Made by a program: the position numbers and the translations under genes
Notes under the pieces: generated by a model
The model's input: the letters and a program-made list of their open reading frames with translations, nothing else
Databases searched by the model: none
What the model was told of the DNA's origin: nothing
Part shown: positions 1 through 64,000 of the stretch, piece by piece
How positions within the stretch are numbered: the stretch's first letter is position 1
Layout of the letters: each line of letters opens with the position of its first letter
From: Phycisphaerae bacterium
Lineage (GTDB): Bacteria; Planctomycetota; Phycisphaerae; WQYP01
Assembly (NCBI GenBank): GCA_051955985.1
Contig: JBQCGD010000138.1
Span: 15,786-79,785, forward strand
Direction: 5' to 3'
Length of the DNA: 64,000 nucleotides

Positions 1-2
1 AG

Positions 3-617
3 TATTGGCTGATTGGGCCGACGGAGGAGTTGAAGGAGGATTTGGTGACGTTGATGGTGGATCGGGCGTTGTTTGAGGAGGGGGAGGTGCCGCGGGGAGT
101 GGAGGGGTGGGAGCGGGTGAAGCATCGGGCGGCGACGCGGTTGTTTGACACGGGGGAGAAGGTGGCGGGGTTGATTGGGGAGATTCTGGAGCAGAACCAT
201 GCGTTGTCTTTGGCGATGGAGGATGCGTCGAGCAGTGCGACGACGGCGGATTTGCATGACCAGTTGGTGTATTTGTTGCCGAAGCATTTTGTGTTGAGCA
301 CGCCGGCGCGGTGGCTGGGGGAGTTGCCGCGGTATCTGGCGGGGATGCGGGTGCGGTTGGAGAAGTTGCGTGGCGGGGGGAGCGGGATTGTGGATCGGGA
401 TCTGGAGGGGATGGGGAAGGTGGCGCCGTTCTGGAATATGTACCTGGGGCGGAAAGCGGAGCATGAGGCGATTGGGTTGGGCGATCCGGAGTTGGAGTTG
501 TTTCGGTGGATGATTGAGGAGTATCGGGTGAGCTTGTTTGCGCAGGAGTTGGGGGTGTCGGTGGCGGTGTCGGAGCGGCGGTTGGAGCGGCAGTGGGAGA
601 AGGTGCGCAAGGCTTGA
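3..617 (+). CDS. hrpA: ATP-dependent RNA helicase HrpA, C-terminal part (DUF3418 region); 5' end outside the window
   Basis: Frame is open from the window edge; ends ELFRWMIEEYRVSLFAQELG...SERRLERQW, the typical HrpA C-terminus. Confidence 0.85.
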   Translation, partial: YWLIGPTEELKEDLVTLMVDRALFEEGEVPRGVEGWERVKHRAATRLFDTGEKVAGLIGEILEQNHALSLAMEDASSSATTADLHDQLVYLLPKHFVLSTPARWLGELPRYLAGMRVRLEKLRGGGSGIVDRDLEGMGKVAPFWNMYLGRKAEHEAIGLGDPELELFRWMIEEYRVSLFAQELGVSVAVSERRLERQWEKVRKA

Positions 618-623
618 GGCCTT

Positions 624-654
624 GAATGACGAAATTCGAATGACGAATGACGAA
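624..654. repeat. GAATGAC heptamer short tandem repeat (STRR2-like)
   Basis: gaatgacgaaattcgaatgacgaatgacgaa right after the hrpA stop; same family at 4196-4261. Confidence 0.85.
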
Positions 655-673
655 AGGGGGTGGGGCGGGTGGG

Positions 674-817
674 AACCGGGGTTTTGATAGCGCCCGTCGA
701 AGGTGATCAAGTTGTTTTTGGCGGAACCGCGTTTTTAGGGGCGCCAGCCGAAGACGATCAAGTTCGACGTTTTGAAAACCGCGTTTTTGATAGCGCCAGC
801 CGAAGATGATCAAGTTG
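674..817. repeat. Three imperfect ~41-bp direct repeats with 51-52 bp period
   Basis: Units start at 674, 725 and 777; consensus aaccgcgtttttgatagcgccagccgaagatgatcaagttg, with ~10-bp variable linkers. Confidence 0.85.
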
Positions 818-1164
818 TTGGGGAGGGCGGGAGGTGTGGGGAGGGGGAAGAATGCCAAGAAGTTGTTTGTGCGCGCGGTTGGCCCCCTACTCCGGCCGCG
901 ACAGGCATTGTGGGGAGTGAGTGGCTGGGCGCTGGCGGGATGTGGAGGGGTGAGATTGGATTGGTTTTGCGCATGGTGCTTCCATAGAGGGGGTGGTGCG
1001 CCCAGGTTGTGCGCACGGGGTGGCGGTGGAAGGTGGTAAGTTGGGTGGGGCGAGGGGATTGGGGTGTTGAGGGATTTCCGAGGGGGATTGTGAAATGTGG
1101 TATTTGTGCGCGCGTATATGTGGGAGGAGTTTGGAGCGCGGGCGGGGGTGCACGCATGCTGCAA

Positions 1165-1943
1165 TCAGCGGGATGGGAGGGTGTGGAGGCGGAGGCGGGT
1201 GAGGAGGTCGTGGAGGGCGGGGCGGGCGGTGGGGAGTTCGGGGAGGTGGGATTTTTCGTGGGCTTCGTTCAACATGGCTTCGAGGCGGTGGCGTTCTTGT
1301 TCGTGGAAGGTGAAGTCGTTATCGGGGAGGGTGGATTGTTCGGGGCCGGCGAGTTTGCGGGCGACGAGGTCGGGGATGTAAGGGAGTTGGAATTTTTGGT
1401 TGAGGGTGAGGAGGTTGGCTTCGATCTGGCCGGTCTGCATGAGGTGGATGCCGGTGAGGAGGACGCGGTAGACGTAGAGGAGGGGTTTGACGCGTTTTGG
1501 GGATTCTTTGGCGAAGAGTTTCCATTGGGTGTCGGTGAAGCCGAGGTAGTGGTGGGCGTGGTGTTTGGTGATGCAGGATTTGGCGATGTGTTTGAGTTCG
1601 TTGTGTTCGGGGGTGGTGTGGACGATGAGGGGGGAGAAGAGTTGTTCGAGGACGTAGCCGTTCTTTTTGAGGAGGAGGGAGAAGAATTTTTTGATGTCGT
1701 GGGAGACGATGTCGAATTCGATGCCTTCGGCGGCGGCGGTTTGTTTGTTGGAGAGTTCGATGGTTTGGAGTCCGTCGTCGAGGCCGAGGATTTCGGTGGC
1801 GGGGAGGATGTGGGCGCCGCGGAGGTCCCAGTCGGAGTCTGGGGAGGGGAAGCCGTAGAGGTGGGCGCCCGAGACGGTGGCGAAGAGGAGGGGGCGGGGT
1901 GGGAGGTTGCTTTGGCGTGGAGGCGGGGGTCGATGGTGAGCAT
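1165..1943 (-). pseudogene. Pol-beta superfamily nucleotidyltransferase (YcgL/RlaP-like, PF10127-type) with a 1-bp frameshift in a C-run near 1890 (real lesion or assembly error)
   Basis: MLTIDPRLHAKATSHPA in one frame continues as PLLFATVSGAHLYGFPSPDSDWDLRG...KPLLYVYRVLLTGIHLMQTG in another; that frame has no start codon of its own upstream. Confidence 0.8.
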
Positions 1944-1958
1944 GGGAAACACCGGATT

Positions 1959-2030
1959 AACCACAGAGGACACAGAGAGCACAGAGGACGACGGGGTGGT
2001 TCACAGATTACACGATTTGCACAGATTACG
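1959..2030. repeat. Intergenic 'CACAGAG/CACAGAT' 9-mer-type repeat element
   Basis: aaccacagaggacacagagagcacagagg ... cacagattacacgatttgcacagattac; related copies at 40586-40653 and 48828-48886. Confidence 0.7.
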
Positions 2031-2052
2031 AGACCTTTTTTTGTGGGAAAAT

Positions 2053-2095
2053 AACTGACATTTAACTGACGCTTATCTGACATGTCGGTTAAAAT
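2053..2095 (+). promoter_or_regulatory. Three 11-bp-periodic direct repeats (AACTGAC, AACTGAC, ATCTGAC) followed by a TAAAAT -10 box upstream of fic
   Basis: Repeats at 2053, 2064 and 2075; TAAAAT at 2090-2095; ATG at 2104. Confidence 0.6.
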
Positions 2096-2103
2096 GCGGA
2101 GGT

Positions 2104-3189
2104 ATGTTCGCACCGAATTATCGGATCACTCCGGGGATTGCGAAGGCGCTGATGTCGATTGAGGTGGATCGGCAGGCGGTGGCGGAGTTGCCGTTGGACG
2201 TGGAAGTATTGGCGAGTTTGCGGGAGTCCGCGCGGCTGACTTCGACGCATTATTCGACGCAGATAGAGGGGAATCGGCTGACGCAGGCGCAGGTGAGGGA
2301 GGTGGTGGAAGGGGAGGGCGTGCACCTGCCGGGGCGGGAGCGGGATGAGTTGGAGGTGCGGCACTATTATGCGGCGCTGGCGGAGGTGGAGCGGCTGGCG
2401 AAGCGGAAGGGGAAGTTGAGGGAGGAGGATGTGCGGCGGATTCATGGGCTAGTGATGCATGGGAGGTTGGCGGCGACGGCGTATCGGGATGGGCAGAATG
2501 TGATTCGTGACAGCGTGTCGCGGCGGATTGTGTATATGCCGCCGGAGGCGAAGGACGTTCCGCGGTTGGTGGGGGATTTGGTTGGGTGGATGAATAGGGA
2601 GATGGAGCGGGGCGAGTTGCCGGCGCCGTTGATTGCGGCGTTGGCGCATTATCAGTTTGCGACGATTCATCCGTATTATGATGGGAATGGGAGGACGGCG
2701 CGGCTGCTGGCGACGTTGATTCTGCATCGATCGGGGTATGGGCTCAAGGGGATTTACTCGCTGGATGAATATTATGCGAAGAATCTGGCGGGGTATTATG
2801 CGGCGCTGACGGTGGGGCCTTCGCACAACTATTACATGGGGAGGGAAGAGGCGGATGTGACGGGGTTTGTGGGTTATTTTTGCCAGGGGATGGCGGAGGC
2901 GTTCGGGGCGGTGCGGCGGCAGGCGATGCGGGCGGCCGAGCGCGGGGGTCGGGACCGTGCGCGGGAGATGGGGGAGTTGGATTTACGGGAGCGGCGGTTG
3001 TTGACGTTGTTCAAGCGGAAGCGGGTGGTGGGGTCGTTGGAAATGGCGAAGCATTTGGGGTTGAGTCATCGGACGGTTGTGGAGTATTGCCGGCGGTGGG
3101 TGCGGGAGGGGTTTTTGGAGATGGCGGATGCGTCGAGGAAGAAGCGGGCGTATCGGTTGGGGGCGGGGTATGGGGGGTTAGTGGAGTGA
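2104..3189 (+). CDS. Fic family protein (AMPylase fold) with internal inhibitory motif and C-terminal HTH
   Basis: HPYYDGNGRTAR Fic motif; STQIEGN matches (S/T)xxxE(G/N); C-terminal winged-helix-like region. Confidence 0.9.
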   Translation: MFAPNYRITPGIAKALMSIEVDRQAVAELPLDVEVLASLRESARLTSTHYSTQIEGNRLTQAQVREVVEGEGVHLPGRERDELEVRHYYAALAEVERLAKRKGKLREEDVRRIHGLVMHGRLAATAYRDGQNVIRDSVSRRIVYMPPEAKDVPRLVGDLVGWMNREMERGELPAPLIAALAHYQFATIHPYYDGNGRTARLLATLILHRSGYGLKGIYSLDEYYAKNLAGYYAALTVGPSHNYYMGREEADVTGFVGYFCQGMAEAFGAVRRQAMRAAERGGRDRAREMGELDLRERRLLTLFKRKRVVGSLEMAKHLGLSHRTVVEYCRRWVREGFLEMADASRKKRAYRLGAGYGGLVE

Positions 3190-3260
3190 GTCGATCGGGA
3201 GAGCGCCGGCGGACGCGGCGGTTAAAATCGCCGGCTAAACTGCGCGATTGCAGCCGGCGG

Positions 3261-4178
3261 TTAGATCATGGTGCGGCGGGCGTGGATTAGGTAGGCGTTG
3301 ATGGTTTCGTAGTCGGGGCGGTCGGGGAGTTGGGTCGTGAGGGCGGCGGTGTCGAATTCGTTGTGGAGTTGGAGACGCCATGCGTCGAGATCTTCCCAGG
3401 TGCGTTCGCCGCGTTTGATGGAGAGGAGGGTTTCGCGGTGTTGGTCGACGCGGACGGGGACGGAGCCGGTTTTTAAGGTTTCGATGCCGGCGAGGAGGAG
3501 GCGGAGGAGGTGCATGACGTGTTTCCATTTGACCTCGCCTTTGTTGCGGAGGTCGGATTGGAGTTTTTTGAATTGGGAGAGGACGTAGCCGTTGTAGGTT
3601 TGGTAGACGAGTTTGGAGAGGAAGGCGTGGCGGATGTGGAGGAGTTCTTCGCCGAGGGGGGTGAGGGTTTCGACGAGGGGGGAGTAGAGGCATTCGAGGA
3701 TGTTGGGGTTGGCTTTGAGGCCGAGGGTGAGGAATTTCTGGAGTTCCCAGTAGCATTCCTGGTTGGGGACGTTTTCGAGTTGTTCGGGGATTCCGTAGAG
3801 GGACCAGTGGAGGTCGGCGGGGGGGAGGTAGATTCCGCGGCGGTCGGTGTCGGAGGAGTCGGTGTCGAGGCCGTAGGCACGGGAGCCGATGATGCAGCGG
3901 TAGATGATGTGGTCGGTGAGGTTGTGCTGGGCGAGTTGGTTGGGGTGGGTGGTGTTGGATTGGAAGTCGCGGAGGGTGGTGAAGTCCTGGCGTTTGAGGG
4001 AGGCTTCGAAGCCGTCGGGGAAGCGGATGCGGTAGGCGTGGAGGTGATCGGCGGGTTGGGAGACGATGATGCCGACGGCGCCGATGGGGTGGAGGGGGTG
4101 GCCGGAGGGGGCCTTGATTTCGTGGTGAGAGACGATTTGGGTGCCGAGGGGGAGGATGGGGGTGTTGGAGTGGGGCAT
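3261..4178 (-). CDS. Pol-beta superfamily nucleotidyltransferase (PF10127/RlaP-like) with extra N-terminal domain
   Basis: IIGSRAYGLDTDSSDTDRRG (GS..DxD), KANPNILECLYS, KHVMHLLRLL. Confidence 0.85.
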   Translation of the reverse strand: MPHSNTPILPLGTQIVSHHEIKAPSGHPLHPIGAVGIIVSQPADHLHAYRIRFPDGFEASLKRQDFTTLRDFQSNTTHPNQLAQHNLTDHIIYRCIIGSRAYGLDTDSSDTDRRGIYLPPADLHWSLYGIPEQLENVPNQECYWELQKFLTLGLKANPNILECLYSPLVETLTPLGEELLHIRHAFLSKLVYQTYNGYVLSQFKKLQSDLRNKGEVKWKHVMHLLRLLLAGIETLKTGSVPVRVDQHRETLLSIKRGERTWEDLDAWRLQLHNEFDTAALTTQLPDRPDYETINAYLIHARRTMI

Positions 4179-4195
4179 GAAGGGATGATATGTGG

Positions 4196-4261
4196 GAATG
4201 ACGAATGACGAAATTCGAATGACGAATCAAATTCGAATGACTGAATGACTGAATGACGAAA
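4196..4261. repeat. GAATGAC heptamer short tandem repeat (STRR2-like)
   Basis: gaatgacgaatgacgaaattcgaatgacgaatcaaattcgaatgactgaatgactgaatgacgaa. Confidence 0.85.
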
Positions 4262-4293
4262 CGGGGCGGGCGCGGGTGCAATGTGTTTGCGGG

Positions 4294-4331
4294 CGTCCAT
4301 AATCCCCACGGCGTGGAAGCCGTGGGCTTGG
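4294..4331 (-). repeat. REP-like / IS200-IS605-end-like hairpin, copy 1
   Basis: Minus strand ccaagcccacggc-ttccac-gccgtggggattatggacg; further copies near 9553 and 42806. Confidence 0.75.
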
Positions 4332-4353
4332 AGGGTTGGGGTGTGGTTTGTAA

Positions 4354-5868
4354 TCAGAAGCCCTGGTGGTTGTGGGGGGAGAAGGTGTCGGGGGGGAGGA
4401 CCTGGGCGATGGAGAGGTCGGGGCGGGTGGAGAGTTCGAGGGAGGTGGGGAAGGGGGTGGGGGTGCCGGCGCGGTCGAAGAGGATGGCGACGACGGGGCG
4501 GTCGAAGCGTTTGGTGTCGCCCCCGCCCTCGCTGGCGGGGGAGACCACGCGGGCGGTTTCGCCGGAGGAGAGGAGGACCCAGGAGCCGATGGGGAAGAGT
4601 CCGACGGCGAAGAGGAAGGCGCGGGTGATGTGTTTGTCGTAGGCGTTTCTGGCGGCGCCGGTGATGATCTGGGAGACGGCATCGTGTGGGGCGAGGGCGG
4701 CGCGGTAGACGCGTGGGGAGCAGATGGCGGCGTAGGCATCGGCGATGGCGATGATGCGGGCGAATTCGTGGAGCCAGGGGGGCTTGCGGCCCTTGGGGTA
4801 GCCGGAGCCGTCGCAGCGTTCGTGGGACTGGTAGATGGGGAGGGAGATGCCGGCGGGGACGTAGGGGATTTTTTCGAGGAGGTCGAGAGCGAAGATGGGG
4901 TGGCGGTCGATTTCGTGGCGTTGGGGCTGGGTGAGGGGTCGGGGGTTGAGGAGGATGTCGCTGGGGACGCGGATGAGGCCGATGTCGTGGAGGAAGGCGG
5001 CGATGCCGAGGAGGCGCATTTGCGGTTCGGAGTAATGGAGTTGAGCGCCGATGGCGAGGGCGTTGAGGCAGACGTTGATGAGGTGATCGGCGCGGGGGTC
5101 TTCGTCGAGGGTTTCCTGCTGGACGAGGGCGGCGAGTTTGAGGAGGAAGTTGGAATCGCGGGTGAAGCCGACGATGACGCGGTCGACGATGTCGCGGATA
5201 TCGAGTTTGATGGTGCCGGCCTCGCGGAGGGTGCGGAGGAGAGCGTGGGCGTTGGTGCAGGCGTCGGTGCGGAGGTTGAGGATTTCGGTGCGGAGGGCGG
5301 GGGTGCGGTGGATGAGGCGGGTGAGGCGTTCGAGGAAGGGGGGCTGGTCGCGGGGGGTGTCGAGGAGGGGCGGTGCGGTGTCGAGTTCCTGATCGAGGGC
5401 GTCGGCGGCGCATTTACTGGCGGCGAGGGTGAAGTTGTCGAGTTCGCGGAGGGATTCGGCGCTGGTGGTCCAGACCTGTTTGATGTTGCAGCGGGCGAGG
5501 GTGTCGCGGTATTCGGCGTGGAAGATGTGGTTGCGGGAGAGGAGGACGATGCCATGGTCGTTGCAGATGTCCTGGGGGAGCGGATGGTTGATTTTGAGGG
5601 AGTCGATGGAGAGGGGGTAGAGGCCGGTGCGTTTTTTGAGGAGTGCGAGGTCGCTGGGATCGGCGCAGGCGTAGAGGCGGTGGATGTTGGCGGCTTTGAG
5701 GGCGTCGAGGTCTTGTTGGCGCAGGGTGTGTCCGGCGCGGAAGAGGAGCGTGCCGGTGCGATGGTGGAGGGATGAGGTGAGGGTCTCGCCGGGTTTTCGG
5801 GCGGCGAGGACGATTTCTTCCACGGGAAGGCTCCTGGGGTGAGCAGCGGTAATAAGGGTGACTGGCAC
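4354..5868 (-). CDS. HD-GYP domain protein (c-di-GMP phosphodiesterase-like); start approximate
   Basis: AFLHDIG, HPIFA, HERCDGSGYPKG, IIAIADAYAA, PRVYR. Confidence 0.9.
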   Translation of the reverse strand: MPVTLITAAHPRSLPVEEIVLAARKPGETLTSSLHHRTGTLLFRAGHTLRQQDLDALKAANIHRLYACADPSDLALLKKRTGLYPLSIDSLKINHPLPQDICNDHGIVLLSRNHIFHAEYRDTLARCNIKQVWTTSAESLRELDNFTLAASKCAADALDQELDTAPPLLDTPRDQPPFLERLTRLIHRTPALRTEILNLRTDACTNAHALLRTLREAGTIKLDIRDIVDRVIVGFTRDSNFLLKLAALVQQETLDEDPRADHLINVCLNALAIGAQLHYSEPQMRLLGIAAFLHDIGLIRVPSDILLNPRPLTQPQRHEIDRHPIFALDLLEKIPYVPAGISLPIYQSHERCDGSGYPKGRKPPWLHEFARIIAIADAYAAICSPRVYRAALAPHDAVSQIITGAARNAYDKHITRAFLFAVGLFPIGSWVLLSSGETARVVSPASEGGGDTKRFDRPVVAILFDRAGTPTPFPTSLELSTRPDLSIAQVLPPDTFSPHNHQGF

Positions 5869-6187
5869 TATATCGGCAGGGAGGGCGCGCGGGATAGAGG
5901 GGGAATGGGCGTTTTTGAGCTGAAAATGCAGATGGACAGGAGAAGGTGGACAAGCGTGTGTGCGGGGTTGTCCATCTTCTTTGCTCCATGTGTTGCGGCG
6001 GGGGCTCAAGTGTTGGCTTGCTTTTGCCGATGGATGAGTCTATCGTTGTTAATGCATTCACTTTGGGTGGGTGAGGAACGTCGGGGGGTTAGAGGTTTTT
6101 CCAGACGGTTTCTAATTTTCACAACGAGCAACCTCGGTATACTTGTGACGCGTGCGTCCGGCATTTTTCTGTGCAGAGGATGCATCA

Positions 6188-14120: not shown

Positions 14121-14147
14121 GCGTGTTGGGCCGGGGGAAGATTGTTC

Positions 14148-14173: not shown

Positions 14174-14200
14174 ATGCGCAGCGCGTCGCCGGCCAACGAG

Positions 14201-51289: not shown

Positions 51290-51309
51290 GGTCGCCGAGG
51301 AGCACGCGG

Positions 51310-51891: not shown

Positions 51892-51943
51892 CTGGCCGCC
51901 GTCCACGGTATTCATCACGAAGGACCACAAAGAGGTTTTGCAG

Positions 51944-52486: not shown

Positions 52487-52616
52487 GCGGGGCGCTTTCG
52501 TTCAACGATGGCCGTTGCTTTGGGCGAGGAGTTTTTAACTTGTCCGGGAGCGAGGTCCTTCAAGCAGCGTGGTCCATTTCGTCTTTTGTGGCTTTGCGGT
52601 TTTGATTCCCATGGGG

Positions 52617-53081
52617 TCACCGCATCTCCGCCATCAACTCCACTTCGACCGCTGCATTGAGGGGAAGCGCATTGGTACCGACGGCGGCCCGGGCGTGCTT
52701 GCCGGCATCCCCGAAGACGGCGACGAGGAGGTCGGAAGCCCCGTTGGCCACCTTGGGCTGGGCGTCGAAGCCGTCGGCAGATTGCACGAAAACGCCGATG
52801 CGAAGGATGCGGGCGACGTTGTCGAGGTTGCCGCCACAAGCGTCGCGCAGGACGGCCAGGGCATTGAGCGTGCACAGCTTCGCCGCTTCAATCCCCTGCT
52901 CAATGGAGAGAGCAGTGGGGATGGGCCCGGCGAATTGGACCTTGCCGTCTTTGGACGGAAGCTGCCCGGAGATAATGATGAGGTTGCCCGCGTGAACGAA
53001 CGGGACGTAGGAGGCGACGGGCTTTGGGGCCGGCGGCAGGGTGAGGTTGAGCCGTTGGAGGGCGGCATCGATCTGCGACAT
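52617..53081 (-). CDS. RidA/YjgF family protein
   Basis: [52 protein letters not shown]. Confidence 0.9.
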
Positions 53082-53158
53082 AAGAACCTCCTGTGAGAAG
53101 TCTACGCGGATTATGAACGGGGGCGCTCGATTGGTACAATAGCTCCCTTCGCAAAACC

Positions 53159-54271: not shown

Positions 54272-54286
54272 GTGCGGGGCGCGGGG

Positions 54287-57177: not shown

Positions 57178-57363
57178 GCCTTCCTGGCCATCCGTATTTT
57201 CCGCCGATCACCGGGCTCCTTCGGCTGGGCGGAACTTCCCTCGGAAACAGTTCGTTTTGGTGTTGCAGCGGAGTCCCGTCAAAGGATAAGCTGAGCACAG
57301 CCCATTGCGGCTGAGCAGCACGCTTGCGAGGGGTTGCTGGCAGCACAAGAAGAAAGCAGGACC

Positions 57364-58818
57364 ATGGTTGGGACGTCGGACAAGGATGTGAGAGCTGCCA
57401 GCTCAGCGCCAAGGATCGAGCCGCCAGAAAAACCCAGGCCCCTCGTCCTCGGCCGGTTTCGATTGATGGAACTTCTCGGGGAGGGATCACAGGGGAAAGT
57501 TTTCCGCGCAGAAGATGTCGAATTCCGCAGGCACGTGGCGCTTAAATGCCTGAAGCGTTCCGCGGGCAGTGCGGCGGGCGGCGACGAAGCGTTCCTCGAG
57601 CAGATGCGCTCGGTCGCGCCGCTGGACCATCCGGGCCTGGTCCGGGTGGTGGAAACGGGCGTCGCCGAAGGATTTCGCTACATCGCCATGGAACTGATCG
57701 AGGGTGGGACGCTGGCGGCATTGATCAAAGGCTGCGGCTCACTGGACGTGGCGCGGGCGTCGCAACTGTGCGCCGAAGCCGCCGAGACCCTCGCCTATGC
57801 GGCAGAACAGGAGAAGGCCCACGGCAATGTGAAGCCGGAGAATCTGCTGCTGACGCGCGCGGGGCGATGCCGGATCGCCGATTTCGGATTTCCGCGGCAG
57901 GAGCAGGCCCCGCCGCTCAAGGGCCCCTCGCCCTATGCGGCGCCCGAAGTGCTGGGAGGATTGTCGCCCACGGAAAAATCCGACGTCTATTCCCTCACCG
58001 CCGTCTATTACTTCCTGCTGACCGGCCGTCCGCCCGGTGCAGCGTCGGATCAGCCCGGCGCCGCCGGACCCGATGTGCGGGCGCTCAACGGCGATCTGCC
58101 GGCCGATGTGGCGGCGATCATTGCCCGCGGTATGGCGAAAAACCCGGACGACCGGCCGCTCATGGTCGAACTCGCCCTGCAACTCCGCGCACAGACGATC
58201 GCAATGGGCGACAGCCAGGTCCTCTCGATCAGCGGCCCCGCCTCCCCCCCGGAACCCGCGCCTTATGTGCCCGCCGCAAACCGGTGGGAGCTTCTTTCGC
58301 TGCTGATCGGCACGGCAGCCGTGGTGCTGGTCGTGCTGCTCGCCTGGCTGGTGCTCCGACGGCCGCAGAAGCAAAATGTCATGCCGATGCTGGACCTCCT
58401 GCCTCCCTTGTCGCAGCGGGTGCATCCCGCATCGAGCCAGCCTGCCGAGGAGGCCGGGACGGACATGACCGACCTGGCGACGGCGATCGCCAAGGCCCCA
58501 CGCCCGCTGGGCGCAGGAAACCGCCAGGCGCTCGACCAAGCCGCGCGGGAACATGCCGAAGTCGAAGTGACCGGCACCGTCTCGGCATTCCAATACAACC
58601 CGGCGCAGCACATCGTGCTTCTGTTGTTCGCGGAAAATCCCAAGTTCACCGTCGCCTACCGCGAACCGCTTGCGCGCGACATGTCGAAAAAATTCGGCGG
58701 GGAACGCGGAAACGGGGTCGTCGGCAAAAAGGTGCGAGTGCGGGGGAAGGCGGAGCTCATCATGAACGTGGCCACGGTGCTGATCGAGAACCAACAGGCC
58801 ATCAACGCCGCGCCATAG
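57364..58818 (+). CDS. Membrane Ser/Thr kinase-like protein with degenerate catalytic loop (probable pseudokinase) and extracytoplasmic domain
   Basis: LGEGSQG, VALK, HGNVKPEN (HRD changed to HGN), DFG, YAAPE, TM helix. Confidence 0.8.
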   Translation: MVGTSDKDVRAASSAPRIEPPEKPRPLVLGRFRLMELLGEGSQGKVFRAEDVEFRRHVALKCLKRSAGSAAGGDEAFLEQMRSVAPLDHPGLVRVVETGVAEGFRYIAMELIEGGTLAALIKGCGSLDVARASQLCAEAAETLAYAAEQEKAHGNVKPENLLLTRAGRCRIADFGFPRQEQAPPLKGPSPYAAPEVLGGLSPTEKSDVYSLTAVYYFLLTGRPPGAASDQPGAAGPDVRALNGDLPADVAAIIARGMAKNPDDRPLMVELALQLRAQTIAMGDSQVLSISGPASPPEPAPYVPAANRWELLSLLIGTAAVVLVVLLAWLVLRRPQKQNVMPMLDLLPPLSQRVHPASSQPAEEAGTDMTDLATAIAKAPRPLGAGNRQALDQAAREHAEVEVTGTVSAFQYNPAQHIVLLLFAENPKFTVAYREPLARDMSKKFGGERGNGVVGKKVRVRGKAELIMNVATVLIENQQAINAAP

Positions 58819-58871
58819 CCCCATGCGCCTCCCGCGGCATTCAAAGTCCTCAATTCCCCATCTCGGCGTAA

Positions 58872-59738
58872 TTACTGCGAATGCCGCCCTTGGCTGCGGA
58901 AGCGGTCCATGTACGCCTGCAGGTGTTTGCCCGGGCAAGCCGTTTCACGCAGTTCGCGGTGCGTGAAGACCTGGTCCGGCGCGATGCGGTAAAGTCCTCG
59001 GACAAACAGGATAAACGTCGAGAGCGACCAGAGCTGCGCCGCGGCGGGCCACTGCACCTCGAAGTTCCCCAGCAGGCAGATCCCCAGGTTGTGCTCGTTG
59101 TGGTCCTTCGCGTGGGCGCCCTGGTACACCAGCGGCCGCGCCTGCCAGACCCGTCCCGCACGATCGATCACGAAGTGATAGGCGATGTCCGCCCACCCGC
59201 GGTCTGTGGCGCGGGTCCCGGCGTGAAACGCGCGGATGTTTTCGAGGTCCGTCGCCGTCGGCTTCCAGGCATCGGTCGTGACGTTCCAGCCGGTGTGATG
59301 CACCGTCAGCCGCGAAATGCCGTTCATCAGCCGGATATCCCCAAGGTGCGGCCGATGCGTGGTCCAGTCCCGCCGCGGAATCACGATCACCGGGCAATCG
59401 GCGGCGGAAGCGATCGGATGGCCCTTCTCATTCGGGAACAAGGCGGCGCCGAGATCCGGGGCCGGCTCGGTGATGGCGGGCGCAGACGCGGCGGTAGTGG
59501 TCGCCGGCGAGCTCGCTGCAGCGGTAGTCCCCGTCGTTTCCGTTGCCGGGGCAGATGCGCTGGTCGCCGGAGCCGTGGATTCTGTCGTCGTCACGTTCCC
59601 TTTGCGGCGTTTCTCCGGCTCACAGCTCACCTGGCTGAGCACCACGCCCGCGGCCCCTGCGGCCAGCGCAAGAAACGCACGCCGGGTGAATCGCGATGCC
59701 GCGGGCTTCTGGTCGAGGTTGTCGCACTGGTCGCACAT
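58872..59738 (-). CDS. Tat-exported N-acetylmuramoyl-L-alanine amidase (Amidase_2/PGRP) with Thr/Ala-rich linker
   Basis: TRRAFL twin-arginine signal; TVHHTG, IAYHFVID, GAHA, GICLLGNF, THRE..ETACPG. Confidence 0.88.
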   Translation of the reverse strand: MCDQCDNLDQKPAASRFTRRAFLALAAGAAGVVLSQVSCEPEKRRKGNVTTTESTAPATSASAPATETTGTTAAASSPATTTAASAPAITEPAPDLGAALFPNEKGHPIASAADCPVIVIPRRDWTTHRPHLGDIRLMNGISRLTVHHTGWNVTTDAWKPTATDLENIRAFHAGTRATDRGWADIAYHFVIDRAGRVWQARPLVYQGAHAKDHNEHNLGICLLGNFEVQWPAAAQLWSLSTFILFVRGLYRIAPDQVFTHRELRETACPGKHLQAYMDRFRSQGRHSQ

Positions 59739-59832
59739 GAGCATCCCTGCTTTCGGCCGAGTAATATACATCGTGTGCCGTCCGCGCGGGCGCCCAACTA
59801 ATTTTGATTCTTCTTTTTTCGCGAGTTTAAAC

Positions 59833-60663
59833 GTGGGCCGTCGCCATTCCAACGAATCCAATCGCCGCTATCACGACCGTGTCGCCTCCCGCTACGACTC
59901 CATTTACGATGACGCCTACTGGGAATTCCACGACCGCGTGACCTGGAACCACATCAAGCCGTTCCTCCCGCGCGATCTTTCCGCGCCGGTCATGGATCTC
60001 GGCACCGGCACGGGCAAGTGGGGCCTCAAGCTGCTCAAGGCCGGCTATCCAACGACCTTCACCGACCTTTCAAACAACATGCTCGCCGAAGTACGCAAGA
60101 AACTCGAGGAGTGGGCCGAGAAGCCCGACCTCGCGGCCAAGGCGGCGAAAGCCACCGTCCAGCAGGCCGATGCCGTCGACCTCCGCGCATTTCCCGAAGC
60201 CCACTTCGAGCTGATCACGGCCATGGGCGACGTCGTCTCCATCTGCTCCGATCCCCCCCGCTGCCTTTCCGAGGTGCACCGCCTCCTCAAGCCCGGCGGC
60301 GTCTTCGTCTTCACCGTGGACAACCACCTCGCCGCCATCGACCACTTCATCCATGCCGGCAACCTCGAGGCGCTGGCCTCCTTCGTGAAAACCGGAAAAA
60401 CGGAATGGCTCACGAAAAACGTCGAAGAGCGGTTCAATGTCCGCATGTTCACCCCCCAGCAGATTGAAACCCTCACGCGTCAGCGCGGATTCGAAGTGGT
60501 GTCCCGCATCGGGAAAACGGTGATCCCCGCCCGGCAGAACCGCAAAATCCTCGAAGACGAGGATGCCGTCGAAACGCTTGTCGAATTGGAGGGAATTCTG
60601 CAGCGCGATCCCGCCAGTGCCGGCCGCGCCAGCCACCTGCAGATCGCCGCACGCCGGCTCTGA
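59833..60663 (+). CDS. Class I SAM-dependent methyltransferase; start approximate
   Basis: VMDLGTGTG, TFTDLS..ML, QADAVDL, VHRLLKPGG. Confidence 0.88.
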   Translation: MGRRHSNESNRRYHDRVASRYDSIYDDAYWEFHDRVTWNHIKPFLPRDLSAPVMDLGTGTGKWGLKLLKAGYPTTFTDLSNNMLAEVRKKLEEWAEKPDLAAKAAKATVQQADAVDLRAFPEAHFELITAMGDVVSICSDPPRCLSEVHRLLKPGGVFVFTVDNHLAAIDHFIHAGNLEALASFVKTGKTEWLTKNVEERFNVRMFTPQQIETLTRQRGFEVVSRIGKTVIPARQNRKILEDEDAVETLVELEGILQRDPASAGRASHLQIAARRL

Positions 60664-60685
60664 ACCCCCGCATCTCCCCGGAACC

Positions 60686-61444
60686 TCAGTGAATCGCCAC
60701 AGGCTGCTGGACCAGCAATGGCTTCACCAGCGGCAACACGCAATCCACCATCTGCTCCTCGTTCATCAACCCGGAGTTGAGACCCAGGTGGAACAGCTCC
60801 GGCGTCAGCGGATGCTTCGGCCAGTAGCGCCGGAAAAAGGCGTCGCGCTGCGCATCAAGAATCTCGATCTCCCGCCGCGCGTGCTTTGCATCGATGCCGC
60901 GAGTCTTCACCAGCCACTCCACGCGCAATTCGAGCGGGGCGACCACCCGCACGTGGATTCCGCACGGCATGTCGCGCGTGATGAACACGCCGCCGTAGCC
61001 CACGAGCACCACGTTGCCGGCTTGCGCCAGCGCGCGAATCGTCTGCGCCATCCGCCGAACGATCGACACTTCCCCCGCGCCGGCCGAATCGCTCAGGCTG
61101 AATCCCGTCAGCAATTCCTGTAGCCAGCTCTGGCTTGAATACTCCAGCGATTCGATCAATTCCGTCGACAGGTGGTGATCCTGGGCGATGCGCTCGACCA
61201 GTTCCCGGTCGAAGCCTTGCCACGGCGACGGTTCCACCGCCGAATCTTCCACCGAGGTGTGGGCCAGCCGGTTCAGCCGCTCCACAAGTCCGCGGGCCAG
61301 CGTGCGCCCGCCGGCGCCGGCCTGGCGGCTGATCGTGATAAATGGCCGCTGGCCGCATTCGCGCCCGTGGCTTTCAAAATGCCCGCCACGCGTCTTCAGG
61401 GCGCCAACCAGGTGGCGAAGATCAGGACTCTTTTCGAAAGGCAT
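60686..61444 (-). CDS. Cytidylate kinase-like family protein
   Basis: FITISRQAGAGG, FDRELVE, NVVLVG.GG, IHVRVVAP..R. Confidence 0.85.
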   Translation of the reverse strand: MPFEKSPDLRHLVGALKTRGGHFESHGRECGQRPFITISRQAGAGGRTLARGLVERLNRLAHTSVEDSAVEPSPWQGFDRELVERIAQDHHLSTELIESLEYSSQSWLQELLTGFSLSDSAGAGEVSIVRRMAQTIRALAQAGNVVLVGYGGVFITRDMPCGIHVRVVAPLELRVEWLVKTRGIDAKHARREIEILDAQRDAFFRRYWPKHPLTPELFHLGLNSGLMNEEQMVDCVLPLVKPLLVQQPVAIH

Positions 61445-61557
61445 GGCACACCTCCCGAGTATCTACTCAACGTGCGCCTGTTCCTGATTTCAGTATAGAT
61501 CCGTTCCGCAGACTTACAAAAAGAAAACGGAGCCCCTAGGAGGAGGGAGTAAGGGAA

Positions 61558-62892
61558 TTACCTACCGCGAAGGAAGTTCCCGAAAAAGCCCCGGATCGCC
61601 CCCCGCACCAGCGCCAGCCGCAGCCGATTCTGCAACTGCCGAAGCTGCGGGTCGTCCGGCGCTATGTCCAGCGCCTCCCGCAGCCACGCCTTCGCCCGCG
61701 GCAGGTCCCGCTTCGCCAGGTACGCCATCGCCAGGTTGTGCATGGCCAGCATGTACTTCGGCTGGATCCGCAGCGCGGCTTTCGCCTGCTCGATCCCTTC
61801 ATCCGTCCGGCCGGCCAGCAGCAGCGTCACCGCCAGGTTGTGCCGGGCGGCGGCATGCCTCGGATTCGATGCAAGCACCCGGTTAAATGCGATTTCCGCC
61901 GCCCCAAGCTGGTTGATGTCCATGAACAGATTGCCAAGCTCCAGCAGCGTTTCGTCGTCGTTCGACTGCTGCGCCAGCTCGCAATTGGCATGAAAAAGCG
62001 CCTCGGAGTGGTCGTTCTGCCGCTGGTAGATCTGCGCGAGTTTCAGGTGCGCCCCGGGAAACGCCCGGTCATTGCGCAGCACGCGCCGAAATTCCTCCAG
62101 CGCTTCGCTCTGCCGGCCGTCCATCATCGCCAGTTGGCCCAGGTGGAAGTGCGCGGTCGATTCTTCCGGCGAAAGTTCCAGCAACTGGCGGAACTTCTCG
62201 CCCGCCGCGTCGTACTCGCCCATTTCGACCAGCAGCTCCCCCAGGTCCAGCAGAATGTCGATGTCCCCCGGATTCGCCCGAAGCTCTTCAATAAAATGCT
62301 TCCGGGCCTCCGGCAAAAGCCCCTTCGCCCAGTACGCATCCGCAATCCGCGCGTGCACCTGCGGATGATCCGGGTCGATCTCGATCACCTGCTGCCAGCA
62401 CCAGAGCGCCCGGTCAAAGAGCCCCCGCGCAAAAAGCGAGTGCCCCGCGTTGTAGTAGCACAGCGGACACCGGTCCTTGTACTGCCGCGCAAGGAAAAAC
62501 ATTTCCTCCGCTTTCTCGTGGTCCCCCTTTTCGGCATACGAGATGATGCGGTTGCAGTACGACGATTCGAACGTCGGGTCCAGGGCCTCGACCCGCTCAA
62601 AATAACGAATCGCTTCGTCAAAATTCCCCGCCCGGTTGCAGTCGTATCCCAGCGCGTTGAGGATCTCGACGTCGTCCGGAACGATTTCCAACGCCCGGCG
62701 ATACGCCAGGATCGCTTCATTGAAACGATCCATCGCGTCGTACGTCAGCCCCAGGTTGAAATACCACGAACCATTATAAGGATTGATGGCAATGGCAGCC
62801 TTGAGTTCGCTGAGGGCCTCCTCCCAACGACCGCGCTCGTAGAGTTCGTGCGCTTTTTCAACGCGCTGTTCTGCTTCGTCCCATTCGGTCAT
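61558..62892 (-). CDS. Tetratricopeptide repeat protein
   Basis: About 10 TPR units (YFNLG..Y, ALEIVPDD, HFHLG, RHNLA). Confidence 0.9.
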   Translation of the reverse strand: MTEWDEAEQRVEKAHELYERGRWEEALSELKAAIAINPYNGSWYFNLGLTYDAMDRFNEAILAYRRALEIVPDDVEILNALGYDCNRAGNFDEAIRYFERVEALDPTFESSYCNRIISYAEKGDHEKAEEMFFLARQYKDRCPLCYYNAGHSLFARGLFDRALWCWQQVIEIDPDHPQVHARIADAYWAKGLLPEARKHFIEELRANPGDIDILLDLGELLVEMGEYDAAGEKFRQLLELSPEESTAHFHLGQLAMMDGRQSEALEEFRRVLRNDRAFPGAHLKLAQIYQRQNDHSEALFHANCELAQQSNDDETLLELGNLFMDINQLGAAEIAFNRVLASNPRHAAARHNLAVTLLLAGRTDEGIEQAKAALRIQPKYMLAMHNLAMAYLAKRDLPRAKAWLREALDIAPDDPQLRQLQNRLRLALVRGAIRGFFGNFLRGR

Positions 62893-63173
62893 CGGGGAAG
62901 TTCTCCAACTTGGTCCTTGGATGCTAACAAACGGGGAAGCGGAAGGGAAGAGTGGGGGCTCACAGGGGGGTCCGCCTCTTTCTCCCCACCCGCGCTCCGC
63001 CGCGCGCACGCCGTGATCGCACCGCGCGCTCACCAACAGAATGTTTTCGGCACTGTGGTTGCGCTACGGTCCCGTCGCAACGAGGCCGCTCAATCTCGTG
63101 GGCAAAGTGACGTTTTTGAACCTATGCACAACCACTAAGCGTGTCGGCCTCTCAGACAAAAAGGAGCAGGATT

Positions 63174-63428
63174 GTGGGAAATAAGCGCGGATTCTCCTCG
63201 ATGGATAAACAGAAGCAGAAAGAAATTGCCAGCAAGGGCGGAAAAGCCGCCCACCAGAAAGGCACTGCTCATGAGTTCACCTCCGAAGAGGCTCGCATCG
63301 CCGGCCGGAAGGGTGGCGCCGCCTCCCGCGCTCGGCGCACCAATGCCTCCAACGGCGGCAGCGCAGAGCAACAGCCGACGCCCGAGCCTGAAAACACCGG
63401 CGAATCGGAAGCACCCGCCAATCCCTGA
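63174..63428 (+). CDS. KGG-repeat general stress protein (YciG/GsiB-like)
   Basis: RGFSSMDKQKQKEIASKGGKAAHQKGTAHEFTSEEARIAGRKGG. Confidence 0.88.
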   Translation: MGNKRGFSSMDKQKQKEIASKGGKAAHQKGTAHEFTSEEARIAGRKGGAASRARRTNASNGGSAEQQPTPEPENTGESEAPANP

Positions 63429-63535
63429 TGTGCAGTGGTGACCGGGCCTCACGACGACGGGGGTCCCTCTCCCCTTCAATGCTGACGTTTTGCCGCTCCC
63501 CGACGCAACCACGCATCGGCAGCGGCTTCCTGTCT

Positions 63536-63979
63536 CTACCGCCCCCCCGTCTCCCCCTGCCAGCGGGCCGCTCCCGCGTACACCTCCTTCTTCCAGATCG
63601 GCACCGCTTTCTTCAGCTCGTCGATCAGGTAGCGGCACGCTTCAAACGCATCAGCCCGGTGCGGGCAACTCACCGCAATCACCACGCTCGCCGCACCGAC
63701 CTCCACCGGTCCCGTCCGGTGCCAGATCGCCAGCCGCTCGATCGGCCACTTCCCACGGGCCGCAGCCGCAAGCTTCTCCATCTCCCGGATCGCCATCTCC
63801 GGGTACGCCTCGTAATCCAGTCGCACCAGCGCACCCGCCTCCGCATGATGCTCCGCCCGCGTCGTCCCCACGAACACATCAATCCCGCCCGCCTCCTTGC
63901 ATGTCACCGCCTGCACCGCCGCCCCGGCATCGAGCACCTCCTGCGTCAGGCGAATACTGTCGTTCGGCATTTCCGGCAT
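63536..63979 (-). CDS. moaE: Molybdopterin synthase catalytic subunit
   Basis: FVGTTR, LDYEAYPEMA, HRTG, HRADAFEAC.Y.IDELKK.VPIWKKE. Confidence 0.93.
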   Translation of the reverse strand: MPEMPNDSIRLTQEVLDAGAAVQAVTCKEAGGIDVFVGTTRAEHHAEAGALVRLDYEAYPEMAIREMEKLAAAARGKWPIERLAIWHRTGPVEVGAASVVIAVSCPHRADAFEACRYLIDELKKAVPIWKKEVYAGAARWQGETGGR

Positions 63980-64000
63980 CGAGCCTCCTATCCTCCGCTC

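What the first reader, a model, noticed from the sequence alone, without database searches (positions are those of the whole stretch)
1..64000. Extreme, patchy, polarity-switching strand skew that dictates codon choice
Seen: in about 1-6 kb and 39.4-51 kb the plus strand is G/T-rich regardless of gene direction. For example, fic (+) uses almost only G/T-ending codons while the adjacent minus-strand nucleotidyltransferase uses almost only C/A-ending codons. The polarity reverses (plus strand C-rich) around 29.5-31.5, 33.5-34.5, 36.6-37.2 and 63.5-64 kb, and is weak in about 14.4-19 and 53-60 kb. It even relaxes inside a gene (GH52, about 39.9-40.4 kb). Most STRR/REP-like repeats fall in the G-skewed blocks. 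A single replichore should give one sign, so this suggests frequent inversions, patchwise replacement, or a localised strand-specific mutational process. It also explains the many long shadow ORFs.
Basis: partly seen in the sequence, partly recalled or inferred. Interest (0 to 1): 0.55.

Follow-up and report, generated by a model that had tools for sequence, protein, structure and literature searches.

The report
Sawtooth extreme strand skew, Phycisphaerae genome
In this soil planctomycete and its close relatives, the DNA strand rather than gene direction decides whether silent codon positions are about 80% G or 80% C, and the polarity flips about every 40-50 kb in a sawtooth (sharp rises, slow falls) that looks like the trace of many replication start sites in one bacterial chromosome.

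Summary
At four-fold degenerate sites one strand carries 81% G and 8% C whichever way genes point. fic has 90% G/T-ending codons and the neighbouring minus-strand nucleotidyltransferases 93% C/A-ending codons.

The "patchiness" is an ordered, genome-wide sawtooth. Across the 5.8-Mb draft there are about 130 sign changes. Upward switches (C-rich to G-rich on the + strand) are abrupt and downward ones gradual: 43 abrupt up-jumps against 3 down, and median widths of 3 kb against 8 kb.

The window holds one up-switch (about 37.5-38.7 kb) and two broad down-zones (11-29 kb and 52-67 kb).

- **Lineage trait:** the pattern recurs in a same-genus MAG and in a long-read MAG of another genus. It is absent from more distant family members.
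- **Set by position:** orthologues take the skew of their position relative to the nearest up-switch, not of their history.
- **Polarity:** a conserved single-copy dif-like site sits at a rare abrupt down-switch, which points to the G-rich strand being the leading strand.

Best reading: a replication-fork-polarity map with many origin-like sites. Inversions and foreign patches exist but are secondary.

The scan had already noted extreme skew in other planctomycete genomes and sawtooth skews in archaea. I found no published description.

The parts
1..6040 (.). End of a strongly G/T-rich (+ strand) plateau that begins at least 15 kb upstream of the window. It holds the hrpA 3' end (+), RlaP NTase (-), fic (+), RlaP NTase (-) and an HD protein (-).
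   Evidence: GC3 skew on the + strand is +0.82 to +0.90 for all five genes regardless of direction. Pfam confirms the gene calls.
6016..6149 (.). Step in skew (0.85 to 0.53) that coincides with a synteny break against the congener G001. The G001 contig C76 ends here, and window 1-6 kb maps to other G001 contigs.
10965..29215 (.). Broad downward transition (+ to -), the termination-like zone of the left domain. It contains core genes (ABC transporter, fmt, ispF, a sigma-54 activator) and normal GC, so it does not look like foreign DNA.
   Evidence: GC3 skew declines +0.54, +0.40, +0.13, -0.05, -0.27. The stretch is syntenic with G001:C76, where the zero crossing lies about 4 kb further left.
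22510..23640 (.). Left breakpoint of the roughly 20-kb inversion that distinguishes this genome from G001.
   Evidence: Window 6.0-22.5 kb matches G001:C76:59984-42400 (reversed). Window 23.6-33.4 kb matches G001:C3:21170-29939.
33367..37230 (.). tRNA-Arg followed by genes with no match in the syntenic G001 contigs fetched (a xylose-isomerase-like TIM barrel and a PATR autotransporter-like protein). This is probably an island, and its trough is shallower than usual (-0.38 to -0.46).
37500..38700 (.). The window's one abrupt upward switch (C-rich to G-rich on the + strand), which I read as origin-like. It is centred on the conserved non-coding leader between the GNAT and OsmC genes.
   Evidence: 200-bp profile: -0.25 at 37.2 kb, about 0 at 37.6-38.6 kb, +0.33 at 38.8 kb. 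The same switch lies at the orthologous place in G001:C76, about 36 kb. The intergenic region is 88% identical to G001 overall.
38551..52483 (.). G/T-rich limb to the right of the up-switch. It holds OsmC, GH52, ComB, a phosphodiesterase, TruD, a BFD-like protein, a GFO/IDH/MocA oxidoreductase, an MFS transporter and others, on both strands.
   Evidence: GC3 skew on the + strand is +0.43 to +0.81.
39900..40350 (-). Patch inside GH52 where both the skew and GC3 relax. It is probably a recombination-imported or otherwise constrained segment.
   Evidence: GC3 skew is +0.18 to +0.33 and GC3 0.60-0.65, against +0.7-0.9 and 0.82-0.87 in the rest of the gene.
42735..42890 (.). Right breakpoint of the inversion relative to G001.
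   Evidence: Window 37.2-42.7 kb matches G001:C76:35477-42309. Window 42.9-55.4 kb matches G001:C3:20973-12775.
51965..64000 (.). Second broad downward transition. It runs on to about 67 kb, beyond the window, and ends in a C-rich plateau (GC3 skew -0.57 to -0.86 at 66.7-75 kb of the contig).

Best explanation
The window is a sample of a genome-wide, lineage-specific map of strand-asymmetric mutation pressure.

**Shown**
- A very strong bias drives freely evolving sites to G on one strand and C on the other. G:C<->C:G transversions are the commonest class of difference between congeners.
- The sign and strength of the bias at a locus depend on its position between neighbouring sharp up-switches. 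It is full-strength G-rich just to the right of an up-switch and full-strength C-rich just to the left of the next one. In between there is a plateau or a gradual decline, crossing zero on average about mid-way.
- Genes moved by rearrangement take on the composition of their new position.

**Inferred**
- The bias tracks the average direction of replication forks, with the G-rich strand as the leading strand.
- On that reading, each sharp up-switch is a discrete, evolutionarily labile initiation site. Each broad down-zone is where forks from neighbouring sites meet at variable points. The conserved dif site is a fixed meeting point.
- This would mean roughly one hundred or more origin-like sites per chromosome, spaced about 20-170 kb apart, instead of a single oriC.

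Inversions and imported DNA add local steps and unskewed patches on top of this.
For: **Strand, not transcription**
- Adjacent opposite-orientation genes share the same plus-strand GC3 skew (r=0.88, n=1188 pairs).
- Four-fold sites are G .81 / C .08, and the mirror image on the other strand.

**Sawtooth shape**
- Block series such as +0.72, +0.55, -0.03, -0.33, -0.63 followed by a jump back up.
- 43 abrupt up-jumps against 3 down.
- A sawtooth meta-profile around the up-jumps.
- 60 up-transitions with median width 3.0 kb against 70 down-transitions with median 8.25 kb, p=2e-12.
- This asymmetry does not depend on contig orientation.

**Long range**
- Full-amplitude plateaus of 40-70 kb argue for a highly processive process.

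**Independent replication in relatives**
- The long-read contig G004:C6 (775 kb) shows 7 up against 1 down at the strict threshold.
- G001 shows the same pattern.
- Among family members sampled, only those whose TruD is at least 67% identical to the window's copy show the trait.

**Position sets composition**
- Block-A orthologues have sense GC4 skew of -0.15 to -0.24 here. In G001 the values are -0.79 to -1.00, where the block abuts the up-switch.
- Some orthologues are fully flipped, with 92-98% of four-fold sites different.
- C<->G accounts for 53% of four-fold differences.

**Polarity calibration**
- The best dif-like 28-mer lies exactly at an abrupt +0.7 to -0.43 switch.
- It is single-copy in 9 family genomes with no control hits.
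- In G001 it also lies at a + to - switch, and in G004 at a milder one.
- The 23S rRNA is transcribed from the G-rich strand.

**Second polar marker**
- Heptamer arrays with equal G and C content are oriented by the skew (87:8, 73:2, 19:1), irrespective of flanking gene direction.

**Precedent**
- The shape matches the fork-polarity reading of mammalian skew N-domains (PMC3320577).
Against: - No replication data exist for this organism, so fork direction is inferred from composition alone.
- DnaA-box clusters and both dnaA genes are not at up-switches. The dnaN-side box cluster lies inside a +0.7 plateau.
- DnaA boxes are not enriched at up-jumps (11 observed, 11.6 expected), and no shared k-mer motif was found there.
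- Genes lean slightly towards the up-switches: 53-59% of coding bases have the C-rich strand as sense, and 5 convergent against 1 divergent gene pair flank intergenic jumps. That is the opposite of the usual co-orientation with forks.
- Two intragenic up-jumps are not conserved even in the congener, so any origins would be short-lived.
- Multiple origins on one bacterial chromosome have no accepted precedent.
- Either side of dif in G004 there is no replichore-scale polarity. This fits many origins, but it equally fits a process unrelated to chromosome-scale replication.
Confidence: 0.45

Rival explanations
1. A polar DNA transaction that is not chromosome replication proper starts at discrete sites and runs outwards on both sides. 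Candidates are R-loop- or recombination-primed DNA synthesis, or long strand-displacement repair tracts. It leaves the newly made or the exposed strand with a C-to-G bias, and ordinary oriC-to-dif replication contributes little skew.
For: - Up-switches lack DnaA boxes and any shared motif.
- They are evolutionarily labile.
- Unskewed relatives show essentially no skew even around dif, so ordinary replication leaves little trace in this family.
- The C<->G-dominated spectrum suggests lesion bypass more than plain deamination (inference from general knowledge).
Against: - Full-strength plateaus of 40-70 kb need very high processivity.
- The dif site sits at a sharp sign change in two genomes, which ties the skew to fork convergence.
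- No such process is known to produce genome-wide skew.
Confidence: 0.25
2. Reverse polarity: the C-rich strand is the leading strand. Sharp up-switches would then be fixed fork-convergence or barrier sites, and the broad zones would be diffuse initiation zones.
For: - Genes lean towards the up-switches, and convergent gene pairs flank them.
- Both dnaA genes and the ribosomal-protein cluster lie in broad down-zones.
Against: - dif, the expected fork-convergence point, lies at a down-switch, not an up-switch, in G000, G001 and G004.
- The 23S rRNA sense strand is the G-rich strand.
- More than 60 barriers, some sharp at the base-pair level and many mapping within genes, with no shared motif, are hard to imagine.
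- The gene-orientation lean can be explained by more nonsense mutations when the sense strand takes C-to-G or C-to-T changes (inference).
Confidence: 0.1
3. One reading: an ordinary two-replichore chromosome with very strong skew, scrambled by frequent inversions and patchwise replacement. Intermediate values would be segments part-way through amelioration.
For: - A roughly 20-kb inversion relative to G001 has both breakpoints in the window, and a synteny break at 6.0 kb coincides with a step in skew.
- GH52 has an internal patch of relaxed skew.
- Long unskewed stretches of low GC (0.54-0.56) occur elsewhere in the genome.
Against: - This model predicts equal numbers of abrupt up- and down-jumps and flat intermediate blocks. 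Observed: 43 against 3, with graded declines.
- Both signs occur at full amplitude in about equal amounts.
- There is no replichore-scale sign on either side of dif over 720 kb in G004.
- The window's weak-skew zones carry core genes, normal GC and synteny.
Confidence: 0.08
4. Artefact: chimeric assembly or binning, or sequencing damage.
For: The genome is a 194-contig MAG with 4.3% estimated contamination.
Against: - Reading frames and Pfam domains are intact across switches.
- The same pattern appears in three independently assembled MAGs from different projects, one of them long-read with 775- and 876-kb contigs.
- Mirrored codon usage at 80% levels cannot arise from read errors.
Confidence: 0.02
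5. Selection, not mutation: for example, dense polar G-rich motifs (KOPS- or Chi-like) or selection on mRNA composition drive the G/C choice.
For: - Heptamer arrays are strongly polar with the skew.
- dif-centred polarity is what FtsK-guiding motifs show in other bacteria (general knowledge).
Against: - About 80% of all four-fold sites are affected, in genes of both orientations.
- First and second codon positions and amino-acid usage are dragged along. That is the signature of pressure acting against protein-level selection, not of a motif.
Confidence: 0.05

Closest known systems
Replication-strand compositional asymmetry with strand-specific codon and amino-acid usage (Borrelia burgdorferi type; from my own knowledge of McInerney 1998, Lafay 1999 and Rocha 1999)
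   Same: - The DNA strand, not gene direction, sets the synonymous codon choice.
- The G/T-rich strand behaves as the leading strand.
- Amino-acid usage shifts: Val and Gly rise on the G-rich strand, Pro, Thr and His on the C-rich strand.
- The sign changes at dif.
   Different: - The amplitude is far larger than in bacteria I know of from memory: four-fold G:C is about 10:1, and bulk GC skew is +/-0.4-0.5.
- The genome is GC-rich, and C<->G transversions dominate.
- There are about 130 sign changes instead of two.
- There is no switch at the DnaA-box cluster or at the dnaA genes.
Skew N-domains of mammalian genomes and origin-associated skew jumps in yeasts (PMC3320577, PMC2764438, PMC3459929)
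   Same: The shape is the same: abrupt upward jumps, a decline to the opposite sign, and a zero crossing about mid-domain. In those genomes this is read as a gradient of replication-fork polarity between fixed origins.
   Different: - This is a bacterium.
- Domains are about 20-170 kb, not about 1 Mb.
- The amplitude is one to two orders of magnitude larger.
- Long domains show plateaus, not a strictly linear fall.
- No origin mapping exists for this organism.
Multi-origin chromosomes of archaea (Sulfolobus and Haloferax; from my own knowledge, plus PMC4595724 and PMC3000693 by title and abstract)
   Same: Prokaryotic chromosomes replicated from several discrete origins.
   Different: - Archaea use three to a few origins with Orc1/Cdc6 and show weak skew.
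- Here about a hundred sites would be needed, in a bacterium with two DnaA paralogues and no motif found.
Earlier notes of this scan (AI notes): extreme strand G/C skew in other planctomycete genomes (e1-4052861, e1-1387655) and sawtooth skews in archaea (e1-5607256, e1-5396231, e1-5716092)
   Same: - The planctomycete notes report the same 75-80% G at silent sites on one strand.
- One of them reports a smooth switch across the ribosomal-protein cluster, which I also see here on contig C59.
- The archaeal notes describe sawtooth shapes.
   Different: - The planctomycete notes, as summarised, describe a single block or a single switch, not a genome-wide sawtooth.
- The archaeal sawteeth are about 10 kb or transcription-unit sized and tied to promoters. 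Here the skew ignores gene direction, and intergenic up-switches are flanked by convergent or tandem gene pairs far more often than by divergent ones.

Membership tests
Classical bacterial replication GC skew (two replichores) | Skew follows the DNA strand irrespective of gene orientation | tested here: met
   r=0.88 for adjacent opposite-orientation genes. The window's Pfam-backed genes agree.
Classical bacterial replication GC skew (two replichores) | Sign change (+ to -) at the terminus, at dif | tested here: met
   A conserved single-copy dif-like 28-mer lies at an abrupt down-switch in G000 and G001 and at a milder one in G004.
Classical bacterial replication GC skew (two replichores) | Sign change (- to +) at oriC, next to dnaA/dnaN and the DnaA boxes | tested here: not met
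   The DnaA-box clusters lie inside uniform plateaus or otherwise away from up-switches. Both dnaA genes lie on declining limbs. There is no box enrichment at up-jumps.
Classical bacterial replication GC skew (two replichores) | One origin switch and one terminus switch per chromosome | tested here: not met
   130 sign transitions in 5.5 Mb. There are 13 up-switches in one 775-kb contig of G004. Mean skew is about 0 on both sides of dif.
Fork-polarity sawtooth (skew N-domains; origin-associated jumps) | Abrupt upward jumps and gradual declines through zero | tested here: met
Fork-polarity sawtooth (skew N-domains; origin-associated jumps) | Zero crossing near the middle of the domain | tested here: inconclusive
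   The relative position is 0.56 +/- 0.22 (n=29 domains). That is centred but broad.
Fork-polarity sawtooth (skew N-domains; origin-associated jumps) | Upward jumps coincide with experimentally mapped replication origins | not testable with these tools
   No reads, replication timing or nascent-strand data are available for these uncultured organisms.
Rearrangement and HGT mosaic undergoing amelioration | Switch points coincide with synteny breaks in relatives | tested here: inconclusive
   This holds for the step at 6.0 kb, and for the inversion ends at 22.5-23.6 and 42.7-42.9 kb, which are not themselves sign changes. It does not hold for the main up-switch at about 38.3 kb, which is conserved in G001.
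Rearrangement and HGT mosaic undergoing amelioration | Up- and down-switches equally abrupt, with intermediate blocks flat | tested here: not met
   43 versus 3 abrupt jumps. Widths are 3.0 versus 8.25 kb, p=2e-12.
Transcription-associated strand asymmetry | The sense strand carries the same sign of skew in all genes | tested here: not met
   Sense-strand GC3 skew is bimodal, near -0.75 and +0.65, with similar numbers of genes in each mode.

The most novel reading that the evidence does not exclude
Members of this Phycisphaerae clade replicate their chromosome from on the order of a hundred discrete, DnaA-box-independent, evolutionarily labile initiation sites. Forks meet in broad zones and at dif. 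This would be a eukaryote-like, multi-origin replication programme in a bacterium, written into the genome by an unusually strong C-to-G leading/lagging-strand mutation asymmetry.
Probability: 0.35. Interest if true: 0.95.

Novelty: new variant of a known kind. Interest (0 to 1): 0.85.

Why it matters
- **Replication dogma.** One origin per bacterial chromosome is close to textbook dogma. A bacterial lineage whose composition records about a hundred fork-divergence points would make that question directly testable. Read-depth profiling of existing metagenomes would do it, and so would culturing a member.
- **If the origin reading is wrong.** The clade still shows a much stronger strand-specific mutation pressure than any I know of in bacteria. 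It has an unusual G:C<->C:G spectrum and re-equilibrates fast after rearrangement. It is a natural experiment on how mutation bias reshapes codon usage, protein composition, repeat orientation and gene order.
- **Practical consequences.** Gene finders, codon-usage-based HGT detection, binning and skew-based misassembly checks will misbehave on these genomes.

Tried and rejected
I therefore built a self-trained codon-model gene caller and checked 40 window calls with Pfam.
- **Transcription as cause:** rejected.
- **DnaA boxes at up-jumps:** no enrichment.
- **k-mer motif at up-jumps:** only composition effects.
- **IS200/IS605 orientation as a fork-direction probe:** no TnpB, and only six diverse Y1 transposase genes with mixed orientation, so uninformative.
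- **tRNA orientation:** mixed. A 27-tRNA array lies on the G-rich strand. The other strongly placed tRNAs split 11 with G-rich sense against 18 with C-rich sense.
- **Candidate causal genes compared between skewed and unskewed relatives:**
  - MutY scores low in the skewed clade, but only because of low-complexity inserts. The catalytic Glu and Asp and nearly all Fe-S cysteines are kept.
  - DinB-type polymerase, RNase HI and DnaA copy number (two in all 31 genomes) do not track the trait.
  - UDG-family copies are somewhat more numerous in skewed genomes, but not consistently.
- **Conservation of intragenic up-jumps in orthologues:** not conserved for the two genes tested.
- **A dif-centred skew switch in the unskewed relative G015:** none visible.
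- **Literature searches** for sawtooth or extreme skew in Planctomycetes or bacteria: nothing relevant in the held library.
- **Not done:** I did not quantify how close up-jumps lie to gene boundaries, and I did not run a shuffle control for the dif pattern beyond the tool's reversed-pattern control.

Full report
**Where the window lies.** The window is G000:C138:15786-79785. G000 is a 5.83-Mb, 194-contig, 62.5% GC draft, estimated 93.9% complete with 4.3% contamination. The closest public records are soil and terrestrial MAGs labelled Phycisphaerae or uncultured Phycisphaerales. I did not place the genome phylogenetically myself.

**Checking the observation.**
- Bulk GC skew in 1-kb windows reaches +0.41 to +0.55 at 1-6 kb and +0.18 to +0.47 at 39-53 kb.
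- It is near zero at 14-19 kb and 53-60 kb.

It gave 3,691 genes of at least 100 codons covering 83% of the sequence. I checked 40 of the window's calls with Pfam, and 33 had a clear domain on the called strand.

Third-position skew, expressed on the + strand, is +0.82 to +0.90 for the hrpA end (+), RlaP NTase (-), fic (+), RlaP NTase (-) and an HD protein (-). fic has 90% G/T-ending codons, and the two NTases 93% C/A-ending. The relaxation inside GH52 at 39.9-40.35 kb and the concentration of tandem repeats in the G-skewed blocks, 27 of 31 rows, are also real.

**The skew is genome-wide and follows the strand.**
- Whole contigs have bulk skews up to +/-0.39.
- 2-kb windows are bimodal near +/-0.35-0.4.
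- Gene GC3 skew is bimodal near +/-0.75.
- Adjacent genes of opposite orientation have nearly the same plus-strand skew (r=0.88). Adjacent genes of the same orientation give r=0.92.
- In strongly skewed contexts, four-fold sites are G .81, C .08, T .06, A .045 when the sense strand is the G-rich strand. The other strand shows the mirror image.
- Two-fold codons, and amino-acid usage, shift accordingly: Val, Gly and Glu against Pro, His, Thr and Asn.
- First and second codon positions follow the third in a monotonic way.
- Gene-strand bias is weak. The C-rich strand is the sense strand for 53-59% of coding bases.

**The patches form a sawtooth.** Change-point segmentation of gene-level skew gave series such as +0.72, +0.55, -0.03, -0.33, -0.63, followed by a jump back to about +0.7.
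- Between adjacent 4-kb windows there are 43 abrupt upward jumps but only 3 downward ones.
- The meta-profile around up-jumps is a sawtooth with a half-period of about 20 kb.
- Counting every sign change, 60 up-transitions have a median width of 3.0 kb, which is the resolution limit. The 70 down-transitions have a median width of 8.25 kb (p=2e-12).
- Reverse-complementing a contig leaves an up-switch an up-switch. The asymmetry is therefore physical, not an artefact of contig orientation.
- Some up-switches are sharp at the base-pair level, and many map within open reading frames.

Contig C138 reads as follows:
- +0.80 from at least -15 kb to 6 kb
- +0.50 to 14 kb
- a fall through zero at about 16 kb
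- -0.25 to -0.34 up to 38.1 kb
- a jump at 37.5-38.7 kb
- +0.60 to 53 kb
- a fall to -0.69 by 66-75 kb

**Relatives.**
- The same-genus MAG G001 (TruD 92% identical) shows the same amplitude and sawtooth.
- So does G004, a different genus (TruD 81-82% identical) and a long-read MAG with 775- and 876-kb contigs. On its contig C6 there are 7 up-jumps against 1 down at the strict threshold, and widths of 2.75 against 9.4 kb.
- In 20-kb samples around truD, strong skew is present in the relatives whose TruD is at least 67% identical, though only moderate in G012. It is absent (|skew| below about 0.1) in those at 62% or less, including ten other members of the same family.

The trait therefore arose within one family, and it is not an assembly artefact.

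**Position, not history, sets composition.** Relative to G001, window 22.5-42.8 kb is inverted, and synteny also ends at 6.0 kb, exactly at the 0.85 to 0.53 step.
- The up-switch between the GNAT and OsmC genes lies at the orthologous place in both genomes. Its non-coding leader is 88% identical overall, and more so in its central part.
- Block A (window 6-22.5 kb) lies far to the left of that switch here but immediately to its right in G001.
- Its genes accordingly have sense GC4 skews of -0.15 (ispF), -0.17 and -0.24 here. In G001 the values are -1.00, -0.93 and -0.79.
- Other orthologues are completely flipped (-0.91 against +0.92), with 92-98% of four-fold sites different.
- Among orthologues with the same strong sign, C<->G makes up 53% of four-fold differences, A<->G 18%, G<->T 17% and C<->T 8%. 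This spectrum is very unusual.

By contrast, two up-jumps that lie inside genes here are absent from the orthologues in G001, G010, G017 and G005. Switch sites evidently turn over.

**Which strand is which.**
- The best match in the genome to the general dif consensus (C90:19932-19959) lies exactly where GC3 skew drops from about +0.7 to -0.43 between neighbouring genes. This is one of the rare abrupt down-switches.
- The 28-mer has the ATAA-N6-TTAT architecture of dif sites.
- It occurs exactly once in each of nine family genomes, including all seven skewed ones, and the reversed-pattern control gave no hits.
- In G001 it is again at a + to - switch, and in G004 at a milder one.
- The partial 23S rRNA gene is transcribed from the G-rich strand.

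Both points argue for the conventional polarity, with the G-rich strand as the leading strand. That makes the up-switches points of fork divergence.

**What does not fit a classical chromosome.**
- The DnaA-box clusters lie inside uniform plateaus or otherwise away from up-switches.
- Both dnaA genes lie on declining limbs.
- DnaA boxes are not enriched at up-switches.
- Over 720 kb around dif in G004, the mean skew is about zero on both sides.

**A second polar marker.** Tandem heptamer arrays, the "STRR-like" repeats, are oriented by the skew even when the unit holds one G and one C: AAAATCG 8:87, AATTCAG 73:2, AAGAATC 19:1. This holds whatever the orientation of the flanking genes, and the arrays are rare in weak-skew DNA. 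In C-rich DNA they appear as reverse complements.

**Interpretation.** Inversions and imports would give equally sharp switches of both kinds and flat intermediate blocks, so they cannot be the main cause, although both occur. Plateaus of 40-70 kb call for a highly processive process.

The shape matches the one read as a fork-polarity gradient between fixed origins in mammalian N-domains (PMC3320577; PMC2764438) and the origin-linked skews seen in yeasts (PMC3459929). The zero crossing lies on average at 0.56 +/- 0.22 of the distance between successive up-switches.

I therefore favour a replication-fork-polarity map with many labile, DnaA-box-independent initiation sites (confidence about 0.45). 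The main rival is a non-replicative outward-running polar DNA process.

The slight lean of genes towards up-switches is a point against origins. It could instead reflect the higher nonsense-mutation load of genes whose sense strand takes C-to-G or C-to-T changes. That is inference only.

I did not find the cause of the extreme amplitude. MutY is intact, and DinB, RNase HI and DnaA copy number do not track the trait.

**Novelty.** Searches of the held literature found no report of extreme or sawtooth skew in Planctomycetes or other bacteria. The library is only partial.

This scan had already noted extreme strand skew in two other planctomycete genomes and sawtooth skews in archaea. As summarised, those notes do not describe the genome-wide polarity asymmetry, the limits of the clade, the dependence on position or the dif calibration reported here.

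Noticed in passing
G000:C90:19932-19959 (outside the window): Candidate chromosome dimer-resolution site (dif), ACTATACATAAGGTATCTTCTCGGACCT. It is single-copy and conserved in nine genomes of the family. Kono et al. 2011 (PMC3025954) could not predict dif in the one Planctomycetes genome they had.
   Followed up: partly
G000:C16:17773-22709 (outside the window): Array of 27 tRNA genes on one strand within 5 kb, covering most amino acids. It may be a tRNA-array element or a phage remnant.
   Followed up: no
G000:C44:10927-12618 and G000:C10:10736-12268; relatives G001-G030: Two full-length DnaA paralogues are found in 30 of the 31 Phycisphaerae genomes sampled (one in the 79%-complete G004). 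It looks like a class-wide trait unrelated to the skew.
   Followed up: partly
window 33367-33442 and 33473-37230: A tRNA-Arg gene is followed by a xylose-isomerase-like gene and a PATR (autotransporter-repeat) gene that have no match in the syntenic G001 contigs fetched. This is probably a tRNA-associated island.
   Followed up: partly
window 38200-38440: The non-coding leader and terminator region between the GNAT and OsmC genes is much better conserved with G001 than silent sites of neighbouring genes. It lies at the centre of the up-switch.
   Followed up: partly
window 39900-40350 (inside GH52): A 450-bp stretch has lower GC3 (0.60-0.65) and relaxed skew inside an otherwise strongly skewed gene. 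It looks like an imported or converted segment.
   Followed up: partly
L073, L076, L077 (MutY of G001, G005, G012); G000:C192:72295-73476: MutY in the skewed clade carries long low-complexity Gly/Lys/Glu/Arg-rich insertions (486-517 aa against 382-398 aa) while keeping the catalytic residues. This may be a side-effect of the G-strand pressure on coding sequence.
   Followed up: partly
G000:C101:34000-88000 and C167:44000-62000; G004:C6:1-40000; G004:C3:307-407 kb: Long stretches with essentially no skew. The two G000 stretches also have lower GC (0.54). They are probably recently acquired DNA that has not yet been driven to either extreme.
   Followed up: no
G000:C59:29000-46000: The ribosomal-protein gene cluster sits in the middle of a broad down-transition with near-zero skew.
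   Followed up: no
G000:C47:7945-10494: The 23S rRNA gene is preceded by protein-coding genes, not by a 16S gene, so the rRNA genes appear unlinked. The contig ends inside the 23S gene.
   Followed up: no
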